Virus record (IMG/VR): IMGVR_UViG_3300005098_000446
Source: a virus
DNA: 25,481 bases
Strand: one strand, 5' to 3'
In this document: positions 1-21,529 of the stretch, in pieces
Position numbering within the stretch: the stretch's first letter is position 1
Layout: the number at the start of each line of letters is the position of its first letter
Translations under genes and position numbers: made by a program
Notes under the pieces: model-generated
Database searches by the model: none
What the model was told of the DNA's origin: nothing
What the model saw: the letters and a program-made list of their open reading frames with translations, nothing else

Positions 1-205
1 GACCTCGCGTGATTGTCCGCCGGCGCCGCGTTTTTATCACGGTCTTCTCTCCTCCACGCCCAGAGACATGATCCAACTATAGCCTGCTGCAACGCTTCTT
101 TGGAGGCTGGCATCTGTGGATACACAGTATCCACGTAGGCGGTGCAACGCCGCCACTGGTACGAGGCATATAGCCACATACCATTACCACTATCATCACC
201 ATTGA

Positions 206-240
206 TTATATATAAAGGTTTCGGCGAAGGGTTCATATTG
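206..240. promoter_or_regulatory. Divergent archaeal promoter region
   Basis: TTATATATAA at 206-215; the minus strand reads CGAAACC-TTTATATATAA (BRE+TATA). Same architecture at 5410-5440. Confidence 0.6.
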
Positions 241-261
241 TGTCGTGATGATGATGGTGGC

Positions 262-1572
262 ATGGCGAAGAAAACCAAAACGGCAACGAAGGCAGTGAAG
301 TTCCAGCTACTACCAATCACAAAGGCGAAGAAAGACCGCCTACAGGTGGTTGCTGACAATTTCCGCGAAATATATGCAGTAGCGGCATACCGGCTCCCAT
401 CGCTGGAGAAGACATCGCAGTACGGATCTCGTAGGGCGCTGAACCGCCTGCGCATCGAACTCCATCCGATCACGATCGTCGCCGCACAGATCGCACAGGA
501 GGCAATCGAATACGCGAGAGCCAACTATGAGACTATGCAGACCCAGAAAAGCAAGATACGAAAGACAATCGAACGCCTCGAATACGAAATCGGACGCATA
601 GACGAGAAGATCGAAAAGCCCGGGAAGCGGGAGCGGGTCAGGAAAAAACTCGCTCGGAAAATACGGCGGAAGCGACGTGGGTTACGTACACCGTATCCTA
701 TCCTGACGCACAACATCATCCGCATCCACAACCAATCATGGTCTTTCGTGCACAAAAACGACAGGATATATGTCGTTTTGCCGGTGGAGAAAATAGGGAC
801 CCGATACCGGAAAATCTGGCTTCCGCTGAAGGAGAGCGAGCACTACCGGCACCTCATCTCCAACACAAACAAGTGGGGGGTAGGACAGCTCGACCTCGAC
901 ACGGACACGTTCATCACATCGATCACGGTCAAGCGAGAGGATGTGCGATACGAACCAGAGACATTCATTGGTATAGATCTAGGACTCAACAACATCGCGA
1001 CACTTGCTGTGGTGCAGGATGGCAAGGTGGTGGAGGTCAGGATGTGGAGCGGGAAGGAAGTGGAACATACCCGGCGGCGGTTCCGAGAGTATCGTCGCAC
1101 GGTGTCGAAGATCGGGCGGGTTGATCTGCTGAACGCCAATAGGGGTCGGGAGCAGCGGTGGATGGCATACACCAATCATGTCATATCAAGACAGATCGCG
1201 GAGATCGTGCTAGCGTACCCTAAACCACTGGTGGTCTTCGAGGAACTGTATAGGTTCGTGGATCGAGTACCATGGAACTTCTACCAGATTCGACAAATGA
1301 TCGAATATAAGGTTGTGCCGGTACGGACATTGGGGATACACCCCGCCCGCACATCAGTGATATGCAACCGGTGCGGGGGTGACGATCCGGATAATCGACA
1401 CGGTGTGCATTTCCACTGCACAAAATGTGGTTACCGTGTCCACGCGGACGTGAACGCTGCGATCAACATCGCCAAGAAAGGGGAGTGGGTGCTGCAACAG
1501 GCAAAGAAAAAGGAGTCAGCGAAAAACTTAAGTACCACCACAACACAATCACACAACGGTGATGTACCATGA
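262..1572 (+). CDS. tnpB: TnpB/Cas12f-like RNA-guided nuclease (~436 aa), no flanking IS ends seen
   Basis: RuvC-I GIDLG, RuvC-II VFEEL, Zn finger CNRC...CTKC, RuvC-III HADVNAAINIA. Start moved to ATG 262 (after TATA 206-215 and GATGGTGG) from the track's 142. Confidence 0.9.
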   Translation: MAKKTKTATKAVKFQLLPITKAKKDRLQVVADNFREIYAVAAYRLPSLEKTSQYGSRRALNRLRIELHPITIVAAQIAQEAIEYARANYETMQTQKSKIRKTIERLEYEIGRIDEKIEKPGKRERVRKKLARKIRRKRRGLRTPYPILTHNIIRIHNQSWSFVHKNDRIYVVLPVEKIGTRYRKIWLPLKESEHYRHLISNTNKWGVGQLDLDTDTFITSITVKREDVRYEPETFIGIDLGLNNIATLAVVQDGKVVEVRMWSGKEVEHTRRRFREYRRTVSKIGRVDLLNANRGREQRWMAYTNHVISRQIAEIVLAYPKPLVVFEELYRFVDRVPWNFYQIRQMIEYKVVPVRTLGIHPARTSVICNRCGGDDPDNRHGVHFHCTKCGYRVHADVNAAINIAKKGEWVLQQAKKKESAKNLSTTTTQSHNGDVP

Positions 1573-1739
1573 AAAAACAGATCAGAGTAAGTAGAACAAC
1601 GAGTTACTACCACGACGTTTTCAACAACATCGTCGAAATAACGCAACAGACGGGCGACTCCTTCAGTGAGGTCGTAAACGAATTGTGCCGCGATGGTATT
1701 GCGGCAAGGAGAGCAGCGCAGGAGGCGAAGAAGCAATGA
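1569..1739 (+). CDS. Ribbon-helix-helix-like protein, 56 aa (not in ORF track)
   Basis: MKKQIRVSRTTSYYHDVFNNIVEITQQTGDSFSEVVNELCRDGIAARRAAQEAKKQ. ATGA overlaps with both neighbours; beta-strand plus two-helix pattern. Confidence 0.65.
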   Translation: MKKQIRVSRTTSYYHDVFNNIVEITQQTGDSFSEVVNELCRDGIAARRAAQEAKKQ

Positions 1740-2629
1740 CCGACACACCTGCGAAGACAGTGGGTAACCATGTGGATGACGAGGTAACCAATGCAGGTAA
1801 CCTTGTGGACGATGAGGTAACCAATGTAGGTAACCTTGTGGATGACGAGGTAACCACTGCAGGTAACCACACGAACAGCAGGGATAGAAAGAAACCAACT
1901 GGCACGAAAGCAACGAAAATCCGGGTAACCGATATCGATCGACTCATGGAGATCGCTGTCGACGGCGAGGAGAGTCCGGCATCTGTCCTGACCAGGGTGC
2001 TGGATGAGTACACCCAAATGCGAGACATGAGAGAGCAGATCGATGATCTCCGTGGCGAACTCGATGCGGTCCGACAGTCAGCAAGTGAGCGTGAGAGTAA
2101 GTTGTTGGCGATCATCGATACACTCAAACGTGAGCAGCAGTCGAAGAGTACAGCGGTCATACCAGGTGGAGAGAAGCTGGACACATCTGTCGTCAGAGAT
2201 ATTGTGCTGGACACCAGAGACATCTGTGGCGATGATGCCGAATGTGGAAAAATCATATCGAAGATGCTGGACATCAGGACACATTTCGCCAGCAAAGCTA
2301 TGGAACAGGAGTATGATGCCGAGCAGAAGCGGCTGGACCGTGAGCAGAAGGAGCGTGACAGGAAGTTCAAGGCAGAGCAGGCAGAGAAGGAACGCCAGCA
2401 CCGAATCGAACTCGCCCTGGCGAAGAAGGGCGGCTTCAAAAAGGAGTTTCTGGAGGACGTGGTTTTCATCGGGGGCGGGTCCCCGAAGCGACCGAAAGAG
2501 GAACTCAAGAAGCAGCAACGTTGGGCGAAGGCGAGGTCTGATGAGGAAGACGGCGGCGAGAACCTCCGCAACACGATGACCGAAGGATACGTTGGCGAGG
2601 GTGAGGAAGACATCGATATGGAGGAGTGA
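1736..2629 (+). CDS. Hypothetical protein with N-terminal 11-aa repeats, RHH-like segment and coiled coil
   Basis: ORF 1685-2629; ATG 1736 overlaps the upstream stop; repeats (A/V)GN(H/L)VDDEVT(N/T). Confidence 0.75.
   Translation: MTDTPAKTVGNHVDDEVTNAGNLVDDEVTNVGNLVDDEVTTAGNHTNSRDRKKPTGTKATKIRVTDIDRLMEIAVDGEESPASVLTRVLDEYTQMRDMREQIDDLRGELDAVRQSASERESKLLAIIDTLKREQQSKSTAVIPGGEKLDTSVVRDIVLDTRDICGDDAECGKIISKMLDIRTHFASKAMEQEYDAEQKRLDREQKERDRKFKAEQAEKERQHRIELALAKKGGFKKEFLEDVVFIGGGSPKRPKEELKKQQRWAKARSDEEDGGENLRNTMTEGYVGEGEEDIDMEE
1763..1868. repeat. 33-bp tandem repeat (~3.2 copies) with seven GGTAACC sites
   Basis: GGTAACC at 1763, 1783, 1796, 1816, 1829, 1849 and 1862 (alternating 20/13 spacing); an eighth at 1924. 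Confidence 0.95.
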
Positions 2630-4696: not shown

Positions 4697-4859
4697 ACCA
4701 TTTTTATCGACCGCCAATTTAGAATCGATATGAGCGACGATCTCACAACCTGTCCATATTGGGATATGTGACAGCGAGAAAAAATCGATTCTACAAAAAC
4801 CGACATGCGGCGGCGTGAAATTTGTGACGCTGCCACATGCTGTCAGCAGCGGGGTCAGG

Positions 4860-4982
4860 TCAGTTGCCGTCCGGTTCTTTTCTCATCCTCAGCAGCATCC
4901 CATAGATTTTCGCTGGGTTGTTCTCGATCTCGGCGATGGCTTCTGACATGGGTATGTCGAGCAGTTCGTCGAATGTATACAT
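4860..4982 (-). CDS. Hypothetical 40-aa protein (not in ORF track)
   Basis: MYTFDELLDIPMSEAIAEIENNPAKIYGMLLRMRKEPDGN; amphipathic and protein-like, AGGA upstream. Confidence 0.45.
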   Translation of the reverse strand: MYTFDELLDIPMSEAIAEIENNPAKIYGMLLRMRKEPDGN

Positions 4983-5012: not shown

Positions 5013-5400
5013 AAGTGGTGTGCCCCGCAGTTGCCACTTGTGTTTCGTCGCTGGTGCACCGGCGACAGGTATCGACCAACCTATGTAAGACTACGAGGTC
5101 TCTCGGCATGACATCATCTCTACTACACAGTCTTAAAAAAGTTGTGGTAGAGGGATCGCCTGTCCTCCCGGAGATCCGCGCCGATTCGCTGGGTCTATTG
5201 CGCATAGCTTGCACCCAACTATGCTTTGGGCAGCGCGATCGGCTGTTGCCGGTATCGCACAGGGATTTTCACCCTGGTTTTCCCCTCAGGGCTATGTTTT
5301 TCACCAGCAGAGACACGGGGACGTTTGGCGATCCCTTTTGATGTGGTGGGATTGCAACAGATGAAATCTCATTAGAGACCTCGGTGACGTGAGATGATGT
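5013..5400. ncRNA. Candidate structured non-coding RNA of unknown class
   Basis: At least 8 complementary stems found by eye (e.g. 5151-5160/5327-5336 perfect 10 bp; 5047-5054/5059-5066; 5086-5092/5129-5135). No credible ORF. Confidence 0.55.
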
Positions 5401-5634: not shown

Positions 5635-6311
5635 CGGGAATACCTGACGACCATAAAGAGGCTCTCTGGCAACTGTTTGATGCCGCAAAGCGTTTCAGAG
5701 AACAGATCGAGATATTCAGAGGGGAAGAGGTCGACATAGACTCGATCCTGCGGACTGTGATCTATGATGTAGATGGCGCGAACAATTCCCTGATCAGGGA
5801 GATGACCAGTGTGCTCTGGGAAATAGACGTCGTAAGGCGTGCACGACTGATTCGACAGGGGACTAAACTCGACAAAGCACTGAAGGAGCTCGGTGTCGAA
5901 GCGATGTATAGTATCGTGGATTTAGACGATACACTGAACTCACGGGTCAAATGCGTCATGGTCAGATACCCGGCAGAAGAGATCACACCAAAGGATGTGA
6001 GAAGCAGGGTGGAGACGGCGAAAAAATCAGCTATCGCATTGGACCCGATGGGTATTATATATGCTTCAAACCTGAAACACTGTCTTGAAGAGCAAGGATT
6101 ATATGGCGTTGCACTGCAAGATATGCGCGATAAGAGATTCGACTGGCTTCTCGCAGATGTCATATCGAAGGGCAGGCTGCTCACTCATGTGAGACGTGAA
6201 GAGGGTCTTCCCAGACGAATGCCGAAAGAGAAGAAGACGGATAAAAAGGAGGTTTTCTCATGGAGAAAGTTGAGGAACAGAAGACTGAGGACGGTGCACA
6301 AGGGACGGTAA
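5631..6311 (+). CDS. Hypothetical protein
   Basis: 226-aa ORF with natural composition, in operon context. Confidence 0.7.
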   Translation: MTGIPDDHKEALWQLFDAAKRFREQIEIFRGEEVDIDSILRTVIYDVDGANNSLIREMTSVLWEIDVVRRARLIRQGTKLDKALKELGVEAMYSIVDLDDTLNSRVKCVMVRYPAEEITPKDVRSRVETAKKSAIALDPMGIIYASNLKHCLEEQGLYGVALQDMRDKRFDWLLADVISKGRLLTHVRREEGLPRRMPKEKKTDKKEVFSWRKLRNRRLRTVHKGR

Positions 6312-6754
6312 ATGAACAGACCATGAAGCTGGAGTCGGTCATTGCGAAACTGGAGTCGGTCATCGAAAAACAGGCAGAGAAGATCAAAACCCTCCGGCGA
6401 GAAACCGGTGAACTGACATCGACCATCGAAGTGCTAAAAGCATCACTGAAAGACGCTCACAAGTCTTCTGATACGGAGCTGGACCGTTGCAAAGAAGAGG
6501 TCAAATCACTTAACACCGATATCAATTGTCTCCGCGAGCATATACAAGAGGTATCCATTGCACATAGAATAGAGATGCACGAACGCGACCACATGATCGA
6601 CCGCCTAAAAGAAGACTTGCTCGCGAACAAGATTTGCGAAAACGACGAATTAAACACCGGTAAAAAATGTGGAAAACATGTCACAACGGTGAATATCATT
6701 ATCAACGGGTGTGTAGAAGAGCTGCCCGACTCGGAAACAATCGTGTTACCATGA
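6260..6754 (+). CDS. Coiled-coil hypothetical protein
   Basis: Heptad-rich sequence; start may be downstream of 6260. Confidence 0.65.
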   Translation: MEKVEEQKTEDGAQGTVNEQTMKLESVIAKLESVIEKQAEKIKTLRRETGELTSTIEVLKASLKDAHKSSDTELDRCKEEVKSLNTDINCLREHIQEVSIAHRIEMHERDHMIDRLKEDLLANKICENDELNTGKKCGKHVTTVNIIINGCVEELPDSETIVLP

Positions 6755-6895
6755 GCGAAAAAGCACGTAGAAAGCGAGCGATGCGAATTAGGGGCGATAA
6801 GCGTGTCAAGGCGGAGAAGCCGAAAGGTCTGTCGGGACACTGGGCAAGATGGAGAACGATGGACACTGGTCGTCACGCACGGAGGGAAGCCACAC

Positions 6896-10509: not shown

Positions 10510-10539
10510 ACGCATCAAAAGACTTAACGACATTAAGCA

Positions 10540-10635
10540 ATTTCAATCCCGCAACGGTCTGATTTGAACGGAACACGTCCAAATAGAACAGGATAACTCT
10601 TTCAAATTTCAATCCCGCAACGGTCTGATTTGAAC
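10540..10635 (-). CRISPR. Orphan CRISPR mini-array: 2 identical 30-bp repeats and one 36-bp spacer
   Basis: Minus-strand repeat GTTCAAATCAGACCGTTGCGGGATTGAAAT at 10540-10569 and 10606-10635; spacer 10570-10605; ATTGAAAN 3' end typical of type I-B/III repeats. Confidence 0.9.
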
Positions 10636-18885: not shown

Positions 18886-19236
18886 TCATATCTGGTGCCG
18901 CTGCCTGTCCTTAAATTCTTGTTGCTTGGCAGCGTTCCAGCCCGATACTGGCTGATAATACCCTGTCACTCGTGAAAGTTGCTCAACGCAGTGGTTGTTG
19001 CAATCCGGGCACATGGGGTTCCCGCATAATGGGCACACCGCTATTGTCGCTACATATTGTTTGTGACACTTCGCCCGATTGTGCCACACCCATAGGTTGA
19101 GGGGACAGTCCGCGGGATCATCAACTGTGATCAATTCGCCATTGTTGAAATGTTTTATCCAGGCGAGATTCCGGTCGATGAACGCTTTCCGCGGAAGCGC
19201 CATCATCTCTTTTATGTCAATCGGTTTATATTTCAT
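18886..19236 (-). CDS. Standalone NrdD C-terminal Zn-ribbon/glycyl-radical domain protein
   Basis: CPLCG...CPDC followed by SRVTGYYQPVSGWNAAKQQEFKDR. Confidence 0.8.
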   Translation of the reverse strand: MKYKPIDIKEMMALPRKAFIDRNLAWIKHFNNGELITVDDPADCPLNLWVWHNRAKCHKQYVATIAVCPLCGNPMCPDCNNHCVEQLSRVTGYYQPVSGWNAAKQQEFKDRQRHQI

Positions 19237-20589
19237 AGTACCTTGCGCAAGGAAACTCCGTTACTTGTAGCGGAGAGGAATTGCGCCTCCATAAAGCTTA
19301 TATGGTTACGTGACGTAGTTCTTATTGGTGAGACCTTGAAAACTGTAGTACTTAACTGTTTGCCGCTAACCAATAAGAAACAGCAGATACGTGATAGATT
19401 CTTTAAAGAATATCTTCGCGTTCTGAATATCACACTTAACTCCTTGCACGATGCTAAATCTTCCAATGATTTGCACCATCTAACATATTTCAACATTCGT
19501 AAAACCTCCTTTTTGCCTTCTGATATTGTTGAAGAAGCCCGGAAAGATGTCTGGGCTAAACGTAAGACTGTTAAGAATAAATTTAAACGATGCTCCATTC
19601 GACTTAACAAAAGATGGTTTAAGTTTTTCACAACGGATCGAGCAACTCCCTGTTTCAAGATCACCTACGCTCCACATAAAACCTTTACTATCCCTATAGC
19701 CATCGACGGCAGTTATGATCGATTTAATCAGTTCCTTAATGCTGGTTGGGTCATCAAGACTATATCCCTTCTTGATGATAAGATTGCAGTTGCCATCGAC
19801 AAAGAGTTTGATGTTCCCGACCCACTCAGCAGGTATGTTATTGGTGTTGATGTCGGTTCGACCACTCTCGCCGCGATAACTGTTTTTGACACCCTCAAAA
19901 ACCGTGTTGTCAAACAGCTTTACTTGGGTAGAGATGTTGCTATTAGACAACACAAATTTGTGGATCGGCGCGCTTTGCTCCAAAGCAAGGCTGACAAAGG
20001 GTCTGATCAAGCGAAGAAGAGTCTCAAACGACTTGCTAACAAACAATTCAACTTTGTCAAGACCCGTAGTGGTCAAATTGCTAAAGAGATTGTAAATCTT
20101 GCGGTTGAATACAATGCATCTGTCGCCATTGAGAAACTTACCATTAGAGGCAGGAAACACCAATTTAACAAGACTGCCAACCGAAAGATAAATACGATTC
20201 CATACGCGCAGTTTAGAGACTTTCTCGTGTCGGACTGTGTTGAGCATGGAGTGTATCTTGATCAGATTGACCCATACCACACCTCGAAGTGGTGTCCTTA
20301 CTGCGGTGCAGTGAACAAAGGACATGCCTCGTCTAACTACGCTTTGTATAAGTGTAAAGGGTGCGGTCGGGTTGTCAACAGCGATAGGAAAGCGTCCCAT
20401 GCTGTTGCTATCAAATCGGCTTTGGTGCGGGAACAAATACAAGGTCTCACCAACCTTTTTTCCCAGTTTACCAAAGCTGGAGTTGCTGTAAACCATCTCT
20501 TCCGTCCAGGTGATAAGGTTTTGAGTTGTGCTGTGCATGATATCAATCCTTTGATGGAAAGCCCCGTGTCTTGACACGGGGTAGTTTAC
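19237..20589 (+). mobile_element. IS200/IS605-family tnpB-only (IS1341-like) element
   Basis: LE hairpin CTCCGTTAC-TT-GTAGCGGAG (19256-19275) preceded by GAAA, with TTCAT at 19232-19236. RE hairpin CCCCGTGTC-TT-GACACGGGG (20562-20581) preceded by AAAG and ending TTAC (20586-20589). AT-richer than flanks; no tnpA. Confidence 0.85.
19336..20574 (+). CDS. tnpB: IS-encoded TnpB nuclease (~412 aa)
   Basis: GVDVG, AIEKL, TSKWCPYC...CKGC, NSDRKAS; TTG start after GGTGA. Confidence 0.9.
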   Translation: MKTVVLNCLPLTNKKQQIRDRFFKEYLRVLNITLNSLHDAKSSNDLHHLTYFNIRKTSFLPSDIVEEARKDVWAKRKTVKNKFKRCSIRLNKRWFKFFTTDRATPCFKITYAPHKTFTIPIAIDGSYDRFNQFLNAGWVIKTISLLDDKIAVAIDKEFDVPDPLSRYVIGVDVGSTTLAAITVFDTLKNRVVKQLYLGRDVAIRQHKFVDRRALLQSKADKGSDQAKKSLKRLANKQFNFVKTRSGQIAKEIVNLAVEYNASVAIEKLTIRGRKHQFNKTANRKINTIPYAQFRDFLVSDCVEHGVYLDQIDPYHTSKWCPYCGAVNKGHASSNYALYKCKGCGRVVNSDRKASHAVAIKSALVREQIQGLTNLFSQFTKAGVAVNHLFRPGDKVLSCAVHDINPLMESPVS

Positions 20590-20614: not shown

Positions 20615-21529
20615 TTACCCGGACTTTCTCGGTCTTTCGATCTGGATATATCCCGGATGTTCCAGACGTTGGTGTTTTTTCAGAACGTCTGTCCGTGTCC
20701 TGAACCATAACCGCTTGAATTCTTCAACCAGATTTGCCCCAATTGATGATGGGAACCTCTCATGTAATTTTTCTATCCTATTGAGAGCCTCGCATGGAGA
20801 TTTGGAGATCATTATTGCTTGCGCAATCGCGGTTTCATGAGGTTCCCCCACTTCAGGAGGACGGTACAGGTTTTCTTTATAATAATTCTGCCACAACCTC
20901 CAGATTATCTTCTCCTCAATCATGCTCTCTTCTTCGGTCGTGTTATCCTCCTTATCAATCATCTTCTCCTCCTCCTCAATCATGCTCTCCTCATCCGGAG
21001 GGCGCGATCCCATGTATGACTCGATGAACTCCTTGCTGTATTTCGCCAGCCATGGGTATTCGGATATCACCGCCTCATAGTAACCAATCTTTGGTTTCCT
21101 GCCCATACGTGCTCGGATCACATGATCCGTAATTCTGCGCAGGAAATCGTAATCGAATCCAGCAGCCTCAACAACAGCTCTCTCACTTGGGAAGAGTTTG
21201 GTGCGGTGCTTATACAGAATCACATTTTCTTCTTGAGTGGGGAGCAGCCCCTCTGTTGTGATGATGTGTCTATATGCTTCGATAACATCTTCGCGTGTGA
21301 CCGGGCGATGTTCAAACTCGCTCCATGGCTTCTTCGTCGGCGCAACAAACTCTTCAAGCCCGACGGCTTTAATCACATCCTTCCATGATTTAACACCGAA
21401 TACTCTAACGAATGTGTTTCTACCGGGTCCACCAAGTTTGATGAGATCAGTTGTTCTCGGCGCACGTCCAAGCCGGCGGGTGTAAGTACGGAGGCGATCC
21501 GCTAATTGCTTTCGGGTATACACCGGCAT
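20615..21529 (-). CDS. Protein with two homing-endonuclease-associated helical repeats and an acidic C-terminal part
   Basis: YTRKQL...LGRAP...FVRVFG..SWKDVIKAVGL and TREDVIEA...LPT...LFPSERAVVEAAGF; no HNH catalytic motif seen. Confidence 0.6.
   Translation of the reverse strand: MPVYTRKQLADRLRTYTRRLGRAPRTTDLIKLGGPGRNTFVRVFGVKSWKDVIKAVGLEEFVAPTKKPWSEFEHRPVTREDVIEAYRHIITTEGLLPTQEENVILYKHRTKLFPSERAVVEAAGFDYDFLRRITDHVIRARMGRKPKIGYYEAVISEYPWLAKYSKEFIESYMGSRPPDEESMIEEEEKMIDKEDNTTEEESMIEEKIIWRLWQNYYKENLYRPPEVGEPHETAIAQAIMISKSPCEALNRIEKLHERFPSSIGANLVEEFKRLWFRTRTDVLKKHQRLEHPGYIQIERPRKSG

What the first reader, a model, noticed from the sequence alone, without database searches (positions are those of the whole stretch)
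262..1572. TnpB/Cas12f-like nuclease embedded in an operon with no IS ends or 3' omega-RNA: possible domesticated nuclease guided in trans
Seen: all three RuvC acidic residues and the Zn finger are intact. There is a ~50-aa basic coiled-coil insertion in the N-terminal half and a short segment after RuvC-II. Unlike the second tnpB, no subterminal hairpin follows: the last codons are the TATA-like AAAAACTTAAGTA and GGTGA RBS of the next gene, whose ATG overlaps the stop. Established: IS200/IS605 TnpB takes its guide from an omega-RNA overlapping its 3' end and the right end. Inference: this copy has lost that arrangement and may use another RNA in the element (60-200, 5013-5400 or the mini-array), e.g. 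for inter-virus competition or regulation.
Basis: partly seen in the sequence, partly recalled or inferred. Interest (0 to 1): 0.75.

Follow-up and report, generated by a model that had tools for sequence, protein, structure and literature searches.

The report
Miniature Cas12f-like nuclease with upstream tracrRNA
The gene is not a stranded transposon nuclease: it is the effector of a very small, rare Cas12f-type CRISPR system on a mobile element of methane-oxidising archaea, its helper-RNA gene lies just upstream and is cut by the window edge, and the spacer array seen in relatives would fall just outside the window.

Summary
ORF 262-1572 encodes a 436-aa TnpB/Cas12f-like protein. Its RuvC triad (D239/E327/D396) and CxxC..CxxC zinc ribbon are intact. 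It has a roughly 50-aa helical insertion, no 3' structure and no IS ends, and its stop overlaps the next start codon.

The protein belongs to a rare metagenomic family (about 35 clusters). In that family, every active-type lineage with readable upstream DNA carries the same module on one strand: a CRISPR array of 36-37-nt repeats (GTTGCA...GCAAC, the Un1Cas12f1 type), then a roughly 250-nt structured RNA, then the gene. The RNA has strong covariation, with 23 of 47 pairs showing double changes. Its loop co-varies with repeat position 4, which marks it as a tracrRNA.

Window 1-197 is the 3' three-quarters of that RNA; the window edge cuts it. Independent assemblies all break 66-171 nt further upstream, about where the array is predicted. 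The array of this element was therefore not seen.

The closest profiles and folds are Cas12f (V-F1/V-U3), not TnpB. The window's own mini-array (10539-10635) carries host ANME-2c class-1-type repeats and shows no tracr complementarity.

Verdict: a divergent Cas12f-like type V system on an ANME-2 mobile element, with an unusual array-upstream layout. It is a new variant of a known kind and of moderate interest.

The parts
1..197 (+). 3' three-quarters of a conserved ~250-nt structured RNA (putative tracrRNA). Its 5' quarter and its promoter lie before window position 1.
   Evidence: Covariance model R1 matches window 1-197 to model positions 64-252 at 137 bits, E 7e-38, flagged as cut off at the 5' end. 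Covariation on 5 lineages: 90.6% of cells paired against 31-44% when partners are slid; 23 of 47 pairs have double changes. There are 18 G-U against 7 A-C cells, which favours the + strand.
106..150 (+). Predicted anti-repeat region of the tracrRNA; the core GGCGGTGCAAC is at 138-148.
   Evidence: In all four relatives with a repeat, the only tracr site with repeat complementarity beyond shuffles is the homologous alignment columns 201-245 (summed z = -9.1; + orientation only). In L062 the tracr reads TGTAAC where its repeat reads GTTACA; the others read TGCAAC and GTTGCA. The window's own repeat was not seen, so this is inferred by homology.
203..218 (+). TATA-like promoter of the nuclease gene (TTGATTATATATAAAGG), ~45 nt before the ATG.
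   Evidence: Read directly from the sequence. A TATA-like box sits at the same place in L061, L062, L064 and L066. It separates the RNA gene from the mRNA. Inferred, not tested.
262..1572 (+). cas12f-like (TnpB-derived) RNA-guided nuclease gene, 436 aa.
   Evidence: PADLOC Cas12f PDLC01699 at 1.7e-35 and Cas12u3 at 4.3e-35, both full length. The top Foldseek PDB hits are all Cas12f (8dzj at 9.7e-18); the best TnpB hit is 8h1j at 8e-11. The family alignment is A1.
538..687 (+). Basic coiled-coil insertion in the REC/N-terminal half (residues ~93-142).
   Evidence: Present in most family members and absent in P0029-P0034 and P0036. AlphaFold models helices 75-111 and 120-140. CnCas12f1 (8hr5) has a helical segment at the same place, but the match is weak.
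976..1449 (+). RuvC catalytic codons: D239 (976-978), E327 (1240-1242), D396 (1447-1449).
   Evidence: D239 and E327 are invariant in A1. D396 lies in HADVN, aligned to NADYN of 8hr5.
1363..1428 (+). CxxC...CxxC zinc ribbon (C368, C371, C386, C389).
   Evidence: All four cysteines are invariant in A1. PF07282 matches residues 340-403.
1569..1739 (+). 56-aa ORF translationally coupled to the nuclease gene (ATGA overlap); it looks ribbon-helix-helix-like by eye.
   Evidence: The sequence shows the overlap. There is no Pfam hit. Small RHH-like ORFs overlap the nuclease gene start in L062 and L066, and one ends 4 nt before it in L065. The fold assignment is inference only.

Best explanation
ORF 262-1572 is the effector of a miniature type V (Cas12f-like) CRISPR system carried by a virus or plasmid-like element of ANME-2 (Methanosarcinales) archaea.

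The full module, seen in relatives, lies on one strand in this order:
- an AT-rich leader;
- a short CRISPR array of 36-37-nt repeats (GTTGCA...GCAAC) with 34-37-nt spacers;
- a TATA-like box;
- a ~250-nt structured tracrRNA;
- a second TATA box;
- the nuclease gene.

Proposed mechanism. The tracrRNA pairs through its ...TGCAAC region with the 5' end of the repeat in the crRNA. The protein, probably a dimer as in Cas12f, binds this dual RNA and finds PAM-flanked DNA that matches the spacer. It cuts that DNA with its intact RuvC site. No adaptation genes are present, so the few spacers are probably used against competing mobile elements.

What is shown and what is inferred:
- Shown: the window holds the gene and the 3' ~190 nt of the tracrRNA. 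The conserved RNA and its covariation, the arrays in relatives, the repeat/tracr co-variation, and the closest sequence profiles and predicted-fold matches being Cas12f are all shown.
- Inferred: the array of this element would start roughly 110-175 nt before window position 1, where all assemblies break.
- Inferred: transcription of the RNAs, the pairing in vivo, dimerisation, the PAM, DNA cleavage and the biological target.
For: 1. Family and context. About 35 full-length homologues (39-98% identity) occur in metagenomes, and none is named as IS-borne. L061/L063 (62% aa identity) have a 2-repeat array ~430 nt upstream. L064 (45%) has at least 4 repeats. L066 (43%) has a repeat at its contig edge. 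L062 (44%) has a solo degenerate repeat.

2. Conserved RNA. The non-coding DNA between array and gene is conserved at the nucleotide level between loci whose proteins are only 62% identical. RNAalifold predicts 47 pairs, 23 of them with compensatory changes. 90.6% of cells are paired, against 31-44% in slid controls and 0 of 500 shuffles. Model R1 finds the RNA once in each of the seven loci of the active-type lineages (window, L060-L064, L066) and nowhere else.

3. Link between RNA and repeat. The only shared site of repeat complementarity is at homologous columns 201-245, with the repeat in + orientation. L062 shows a compensatory G-C to A-U change between repeat position 4 and a tracr loop base.

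4. Repeat type. The repeats are 37 nt, GTTGCA...TGCAAC, like the Un1Cas12f1 repeat printed in bioRxiv 10.1101/2022.10.20.513037.

5. Protein. The best PADLOC models are Cas12f and Cas12u3, full length, at 1e-35. The best PDB profile and sequence hits are Cn/As/OsCas12f. The predicted structure (pLDDT 86) matches Cas12f at 1e-17 and TnpB at 8e-11. RuvC-III is of the (N/H)ADxN type.

6. Contig edges. The window and L060 start within 66 nt of each other. Contigs from four other runs stop 106-171 nt before window position 1. Homology to L061 puts the array end ~175 nt upstream.

7. Host. The window's other mini-array has repeats identical to those of ANME-2c/Methanosarcinales MAGs.
Against: - The array of this particular element was not seen. 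Assembly breaks have other causes, such as strain variation.
- Only five independent RNA sequences support the covariation.
- Repeat-tracr duplex energies are modest taken singly (z = -2.5, -1.4 and -1.0).
- The ...TGCAAC segment can also fold into a local covarying hairpin, so the pairing model is not unique.
- No spacer matched any DNA I could search.
- The PADLOC Cas12f/Cas12u3 models also score the window's ordinary IS-type TnpB (94 bits against 120 bits), so they discriminate weakly.
- The protein is below the curated cut-offs of NCBIfam Cas12f2 (80 against 450) and guided_TnpB (82 against 100).
- No transcript data were available.
Confidence: 0.72

Rival explanations
1. The module is degenerate in this element. 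The array has shrunk to a solo repeat or been lost, as in L062. The nuclease then works with a fixed guide, like a re-formed omega-RNA, for example as a regulator or an addiction or exclusion device, and not as a multi-spacer CRISPR system.
For: L062 shows a single degenerate repeat upstream of an intact tracr and gene. Arrays in this family are tiny, with 1-4 or more repeats. A sister clade has lost the RuvC-III Asp and has no array within 4 kb upstream. Altae-Tran 2023 describes this same path for Cas12f: the array minimises and fuses with the tracr (PMC10691335). The gene is operon-coupled to an RHH-like ORF.
Against: The window protein keeps all catalytic residues. Its closest relative with visible context (L061) has a true repeat-spacer-repeat array. 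Breaks in five independent assemblies at the predicted array position suggest repeated or variable DNA there.
Confidence: 0.14
2. One reading: a domesticated stand-alone TnpB guided in trans by an RNA made elsewhere in the element, either the structured region 5013-5400 or the host-type mini-array at 10539-10635.
For: The gene sits in an operon without IS ends. Another follow-up in this scan described a Cas12f-like nuclease using class-1-type repeats (e1-5349772; unchecked here).
Against: A dedicated conserved RNA abuts the gene in every active-type lineage. Model R1 finds no copy elsewhere in the window. The mini-array repeat is identical to ANME-2c CRISPR repeats and pairs with the tracr no better than shuffles. 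Family repeats are of a different, Cas12f1-like type.
Confidence: 0.06
3. The upstream RNA and the arrays are unrelated to the nuclease. On this view the RNA is a cis-regulatory leader or an independent sRNA, the arrays are served by host Cas proteins, and the nuclease is an ordinary TnpB whose omega-RNA overlaps its 3' end.
For: Pfam and NCBIfam call it TnpB/OrfB. The nearest relatives outside the family, at 25-34% identity, are multi-copy IS TnpBs of bacteria.
Against: The 3' end has no excess structure (z = +0.31). Nucleotide similarity to L061 ends at 1510, before the stop. The next gene overlaps the stop codon. The array, RNA and gene co-occur in that order in four diverged lineages. The repeat and an RNA loop base co-vary.
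Confidence: 0.05

Closest known systems
Type V-F1 CRISPR-Cas12f (former V-U3 and Cas14a): AsCas12f, OsCas12f, CnCas12f1, SpCas12f1, Un1Cas12f1
   Same: It is a miniature effector of about 400-500 aa with a tri-split RuvC and a zinc ribbon. Relatives have no cas1, cas2 or cas4 nearby. A long tracrRNA gene lies between the nuclease gene and the array, the minimal locus of Karvelis 2020 (PMC7229846). The repeats are 37 nt, GTTGCA...TGCAAC, as in Un1Cas12f1. These are the best profile, sequence and fold matches. RuvC-III is of the NADxN type.
   Different: Identity to solved Cas12f proteins is only ~16-17%, and the protein falls below curated NCBIfam cut-offs. The array and tracrRNA lie upstream of the gene on the same strand, whereas a census found arrays downstream of cas12 in almost all conserved associations (PMC10691335). 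It is carried on an ANME-2 archaeal mobile element. It has a variable coiled-coil insertion. In several lineages it is translationally coupled to a small RHH-like ORF.
TnpB-associated CRISPR arrays on unclassified circular elements of Methanoperedens (ANME-2d) (Shi et al., bioRxiv 10.1101/2023.08.02.551345)
   Same: A TnpB-size, Cas12f-like protein sits next to a CRISPR array on an extrachromosomal element of an anaerobic methanotrophic Methanosarcinales archaeon. Those authors proposed that it is spacer-guided and targets rival elements.
   Different: Those arrays are longer (4 and 8 repeats), vary within the population and lie within two genes of the TnpB. No tracrRNA was described. I could not compare sequences, so homology to this family is untested.
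TranC / type V-U transposon-to-CRISPR intermediates (Jin et al., Cell 2025, as summarised in PMC13565253)
   Same: A TnpB-size nuclease whose guide function is split into a tracrRNA and a crRNA from a small array without adaptation genes.
   Different: LaTranC is a much weaker match than Cas12f: profile E 2.9e-4 over the zinc-ribbon region only, and Foldseek rank 40 at 1.4e-7. No transposon ends or residual omega-RNA were found at this gene's 3' end.
IS200/IS605 TnpB with a 3' omega-RNA (ISDra2 TnpB)
   Same: The same core fold and catalytic chemistry, and a long structured guide-RNA scaffold.
   Different: There is no IS end, no 3'-overlapping RNA and no partner transposase. The RNA is upstream and separate from the guide. 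The fold match is weaker (8h1j at 8e-11, 8exa at 5e-7). The window's true IS TnpB (19150-20574) is only 21% identical to this protein over 209 residues.

Membership tests
Type V-F (Cas12f) CRISPR-Cas | Effector homologous to Cas12f (RuvC-I/II/III plus zinc ribbon, 400-700 aa) | tested here: met
   PADLOC Cas12f PDLC01699 at 1.7e-35 covers residues 50-410 of 436. The top 10 Foldseek PDB hits are Cas12f. Caveats: identity is ~16-17%, and NCBIfam Cas12f2 scores 80 bits against a cut-off of 450.
Type V-F (Cas12f) CRISPR-Cas | Intact RuvC catalytic triad | tested here: met
   D239, E327 and D396.
Type V-F (Cas12f) CRISPR-Cas | CRISPR array adjacent to the effector gene | tested here: inconclusive
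   Met in relatives L061/L063, L064 and L066; L062 has a solo repeat. It is not visible for the window because the sequence starts inside the tracr gene. Assemblies break 66-171 nt upstream.
Type V-F (Cas12f) CRISPR-Cas | tracrRNA encoded between gene and array, with an anti-repeat complementary to the repeat | tested here: met
   A conserved covarying ~250-nt RNA. A shared anti-repeat site and a compensatory change with the repeat. This is computational only; no transcript evidence was available.
Type V-F (Cas12f) CRISPR-Cas | crRNA/tracrRNA-guided, PAM-dependent dsDNA cleavage by a dimer | not testable with these tools
   Needs biochemistry.
IS200/IS605 or IS607 TnpB (OMEGA) | Omega-RNA overlapping the 3' end of tnpB and the transposon right end | tested here: not met
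   The fold of 1400-1640 gives z = +0.31. The next ORF overlaps the stop codon. Similarity to L061 ends at 1510.
IS200/IS605 or IS607 TnpB (OMEGA) | Defined IS ends, a partner TnpA, or multiple copies | tested here: not met
   No flanking repeats. No transposase domain in 20 scanned ORFs. The host genome is not held, so copy number in the host could not be tested.
TldR / nuclease-dead TnpB-Cas12f derivatives | Loss of RuvC catalytic residues | tested here: not met
   The window protein keeps all three residues. Only the sister clade P0010-P0027 lacks the RuvC-III Asp.
TranC (transposon-CRISPR intermediate) | TnpB-clade nuclease able to use both CRISPR-derived and transposon-derived guide RNAs | not testable with these tools
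   Only weak similarity to LaTranC. No transposon-derived RNA was found.

The most novel reading that the evidence does not exclude
The family is an unclassified type V subtype (a separate V-U-like group) confined to mobile elements of ANME and other sediment archaea. Its layout is inverted and co-directional (array, tracrRNA, cas12), like IscB/Cas9d and unlike other Cas12 loci. It is also caught in several stages of decay: multi-spacer arrays, a solo repeat, and a sister clade that has lost the RuvC-III Asp and the upstream RNA and sits beside an RHH protein. That series would be an archaeal parallel to the Cas12f-to-regulator path known from bacteria.
Probability: 0.3. Interest if true: 0.65.

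Novelty: new variant of a known kind. Interest (0 to 1): 0.48.

Why it matters
- **Annotation.** A gene that any pipeline would label "transposase" is reassigned to a working-looking miniature CRISPR effector, together with its previously unrecognised helper RNA.
- **Ecology.** It shows that mobile elements of the uncultivated methane-oxidising ANME-2 archaea carry their own Cas12f-type weapon beside a second mini-array that borrows host repeats. That points to two separate RNA-guided routes for conflicts between elements.
- **Evolution.** The array-upstream layout is rare among Cas12 loci. Within one small family there is an array form, a solo-repeat form and a nuclease-dead form, which gives a compact natural series for studying how TnpB-derived systems gain and lose CRISPR guidance.
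- **Use.** At 360-436 aa the family is at the small end of RNA-guided nucleases.

Tried and rejected
The long contigs that hold P0004, P0014, P0020, P0023, P0025 and P0034 could therefore not be fetched, and synteny rests on the short JGI loci L060-L066.
- No whole genome is held for the window.
- Megablast of the window against phage records found nothing.
- The viral and genome collections hold only distant (at most 35% identity) TnpB relatives.
- A tracr motif pattern found nothing in viral contigs. It gave 10 hits in genome contigs, none of which encodes a family member, so these are chance hits.
- Protospacer searches: no spacer of L061 or L064, nor the window mini-array spacer, matches any held locus. 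Two 20-nt spacer seeds gave no hit in viral contigs. No spacer from the host-type arrays in L080/L081 hits the window beyond 12-13-nt chance matches.
- Rfam found no family at gathering thresholds in the window and none in relatives at E<=1, apart from a chance miRNA hit.
- No tRNA or tmRNA gene was found in the window.
- The look-up of sequencing runs listed no RNA holder, so expression could not be examined.
- Read laying shows how far contigs overhang the window start but does not print their sequence, so the upstream array could not be read.
- Repeats taken in minus orientation showed no shared tracr site.
- I recalled that the Bathyarchaeia virus paper described a Cas12f1; this was checked and is wrong.
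- A labelled phylogeny against Cas12f, TnpB and TldR reference sets was not built, because no named reference sequences can be obtained.
Full report
**1. The observation**

ORF 262-1572 on the + strand encodes a 436-aa protein, P0001. It matches the TnpB/Cas12f zinc-ribbon domain PF07282 (9.9e-16) and OrfB_IS605 (1.4e-7). It scores 81.7 bits on NCBIfam guided_TnpB, below the cut-off of 100, and 80 bits on Cas12f2.

I aligned 34 family members (A1).
- D239 (RuvC-I), E327 (RuvC-II) and the four zinc-ribbon cysteines C368, C371, C386 and C389 are invariant.
- D396 sits in an HADVN motif that aligns to NADYN of a solved Cas12f.
- A basic helical segment at residues ~93-142 is present in most members and missing in seven. 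AlphaFold models it as long helices.

The last 170 nt of the gene plus 70 nt downstream fold no better than shuffles, z = +0.31. The stop codon overlaps the ATG of a 56-aa ORF, and that ORF's stop in turn overlaps the next ATG. No repeats flank the gene.

**2. Relatives and their surroundings**

A word-indexed search found about 35 full-length homologues at 39-98% identity, all from metagenomes and none with an informative name. An exhaustive profile search shows the family is rare. Only six 50%-identity clusters score above 380 bits, among 1.84 billion representatives. Representative genomes and IMG/VR hold only distant IS-type TnpBs at 25-35% identity.

L060 is the same element (98.8% nucleotide identity), and its contig starts only 66 nt before window position 1.

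The key result came from L061/L063, whose protein is 62-63% identical. About 250 nt of non-coding DNA upstream of the gene aligns with window 8-261 at least as well as the coding sequence does, with visibly compensatory hairpin changes. About 430 nt upstream of the L061 gene lies a repeat-spacer-repeat unit: a 36-nt repeat GTTGCATTGCTTCC...CCGCGA and a 36-nt spacer.

The other loci agree:
- L064 (45% identity) has at least four 37-nt repeats, GTTGCAATAGC...CTGCAAC, with 34-37-nt spacers running to the contig edge.
- L066 (43%) begins with one such repeat.
- L062 (44%) has a single degenerate copy, GTTACAAT...CTGTAAC.

Every active-type lineage whose upstream DNA can be read therefore has at least one repeat of one homologous type. 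In each it sits on the same strand as the gene and 270-540 nt upstream of it.

**3. The RNA between array and gene**

I aligned the five independent versions (A4) and ran RNAalifold. It gives 47 pairs in 8 helices, including a long-range 9-bp helix, and 23 pairs show changes on both sides.
- 90.6% of cells are paired, against 31-44% when the 3' partners are slid by 1-3 columns. None of 500 shuffles reaches the observed covariation.
- G-U cells outnumber A-C cells 18 to 7, so the RNA is on the + strand.

A covariance model, R1, finds the RNA once in each of L060-L064 and L066 at 195-249 bits. In the window it matches 1-197 to model positions 64-252 only, at 137 bits, flagged as truncated at the 5' end. 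It finds nothing elsewhere in the window and nothing in L065.

TATA-like boxes sit just 5' of the RNA in L062, L064 and L066, and again between the RNA and the first ORF in all loci. The RNA therefore looks like its own transcription unit of about 230-250 nt. No Rfam family matches it.

**4. Is it a tracrRNA?**

I scanned each repeat against its own RNA in windows of homologous alignment columns. One site stands out in all four systems: columns 201-245, with z of -1.6 to -3.1 each and a sum of -9.1. It appears only with the repeat in + orientation. The site ends in ...TTTGCAAC, complementary to the repeat's 5' GTTGCAA.

In L062 the repeat reads GTTACA and the RNA reads TGTAAC. This is a G-C to A-U double change at a base that lies in the loop of the RNA's own local hairpin. 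The internal fold of the RNA cannot explain that co-variation.

Taken singly, the duplex energies are modest, and the same segment can form a covarying local hairpin. The pairing is therefore well supported but not proven.

The repeats have the length and termini of the Un1Cas12f1 repeat. In published sgRNA sequences that repeat also pairs with the tracrRNA 3' end through its 5' GUUGCAG.

**5. The protein**

- The best PADLOC models are Cas12f (CAS-V-F) and Cas12u3, both full length, at 1e-35. Relatives P0009 and P0033 reach 1e-48 and 1e-51.
- The best PDB matches to the family profile are CnCas12f1 (8hr5), AsCas12f (7wju, 8dzj, 8j12) and OsCas12f.
- The AlphaFold model (pLDDT 86) hits Cas12f chains at 1e-17 to 1e-15. 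ISDra2-type TnpB follows at 8e-11, and LaTranC at 1e-7.
- RuvC-III is of the (N/H)ADxN type throughout the family. This is the motif of the derived TnpB clade in the TnpB/Cas12 census (PMC10691335).
- These models discriminate only moderately. The window's second tnpB, which looks like an ordinary IS copy (19150-20574, 21% identical to P0001), still scores 94 bits on Cas12u3.

**6. Where is the window's array?**

By homology to L061, the last repeat should end about 175 nt before window position 1. The window and L060 start within 66 nt of each other. Logan contigs from four further vent and sediment runs overhang the window start by only 106, 122, 171 and 171 nt. Repeated, spacer-variable DNA is a classic cause of such breaks. 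The tool does not print the overhanging sequence, however, so the array remains inferred.

**7. Host and setting**

The runs that hold the element are hydrothermal-vent and marine-sediment metagenomes. The window's own two-repeat mini-array (10539-10635) has a repeat found exactly in CRISPR arrays of Methanosarcinales MAGs, including an ANME-2c genome.
- This names the likely host.
- It also shows that this mini-array is of host type, ending ...ATTGAAA, the ending I recall as typical of class 1 repeats.
- The repeat pairs with the tracr no better than shuffles, so it is unlikely to feed this nuclease.

The window also encodes two DNA methyltransferases, a dCMP deaminase, a sugar dehydrogenase and GT2 cassette, and beta-helix proteins. 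That set fits a virus or plasmid-like element.

**8. Comparison with what is known**

The minimal V-F1/V-U3 locus is defined as nuclease gene, tracrRNA region and array, without adaptation genes (Karvelis 2020, PMC7229846). The relatives of this gene fit that definition.

The differences are:
- deep divergence, ~16-17% identity to solved Cas12f proteins;
- an archaeal mobile-element host;
- the coiled-coil insertion;
- frequent translational coupling to a small RHH-like ORF;
- the order of parts.

On the last point, the TnpB/Cas12 census reports about 50 independent TnpB-to-Cas12 events and states that the array lies downstream of cas12 in almost all conserved associations (PMC10691335). Here the array and tracr are upstream.

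A precedent exists in the sister lineage ANME-2d. Circular Methanoperedens elements carry TnpBs next to CRISPR arrays and were proposed to be spacer-guided (bioRxiv 10.1101/2023.08.02.551345). Earlier follow-ups in this scan reported similar TnpB/Cas12f mini-systems on other archaeal and phage elements. I used these only as leads, for example to the TranC literature.

**9. Verdict**

Its interpretation is partly supported: the gene is not an IS TnpB, it has no 3' omega-RNA, and 60-200 is indeed part of its RNA. The system is best read as a divergent Cas12f-type CRISPR module whose array falls off the window edge, not as a lone domesticated TnpB guided from elsewhere.

I rate it a new variant of a known kind, interest about 0.5, with 0.72 confidence in the main reading. 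The main residual uncertainty is whether this element still has a multi-spacer array or only a solo repeat.

Noticed in passing
P0010-P0027 (family alignment A1); L065:3700-4921: A sister clade of ~18 protein clusters, 56-58% identical to the window protein, has replaced the RuvC-III Asp (HADVN becomes HTGVN or HASVN) while keeping D239 and E327. Its one locus with context has an RHH-like ORF ending 4 nt before the gene, no array within 4 kb upstream and no tracr-like RNA. It is a possible nuclease-dead, TldR-like offshoot.
   Followed up: partly
window 10539-10635: The 31-nt repeat of the window's cas-less mini-array occurs exactly in CRISPR arrays of Methanosarcinales MAGs, including ANME-2c-GOS (L078-L082). 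This points to an ANME-2 host and to use of host Cas machinery. None of the 16 host-array spacers extracted from L080/L081 matches the window.
   Followed up: partly
L062:984-1020: A solo, degenerate copy of the family repeat (GTTACAAT...CTGTAAC) lies upstream of an intact tracr and gene. Both repeat ends and the tracr loop carry the matching G/C to A/T change.
   Followed up: partly
window 1569-1739; L062:1412-1552; L066:421-561: Small ORFs of 46-56 aa that look ribbon-helix-helix-like are translationally coupled to the nuclease gene. They are upstream in L062 and L066 and downstream in the window. They have no Pfam hit and their role is unknown.
   Followed up: no
window 1760-1868: Three tandem 33-nt units (GTAACC-rich) lie inside the ORF that follows the small ORF. 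The ORF has no family match.
   Followed up: no
window 19150-20574: A second TnpB (474 aa) is only 21% identical to the first over 209 residues and has an SDRKAS RuvC-III motif. It looks like an ordinary IS copy, as another first-stage note says.
   Followed up: no
window 4833-4881 vs L060:4898-5635: The near-identical element L060 carries ~740 nt that the window lacks at this point. Around 6282-6894 the two differ much more (86% identity) than elsewhere (97-99.6%).
   Followed up: no
window 20615-21529 (-): A 304-aa ORF with an N-terminal homing-endonuclease-associated repeat (PF18780) lies next to the second tnpB.
   Followed up: no
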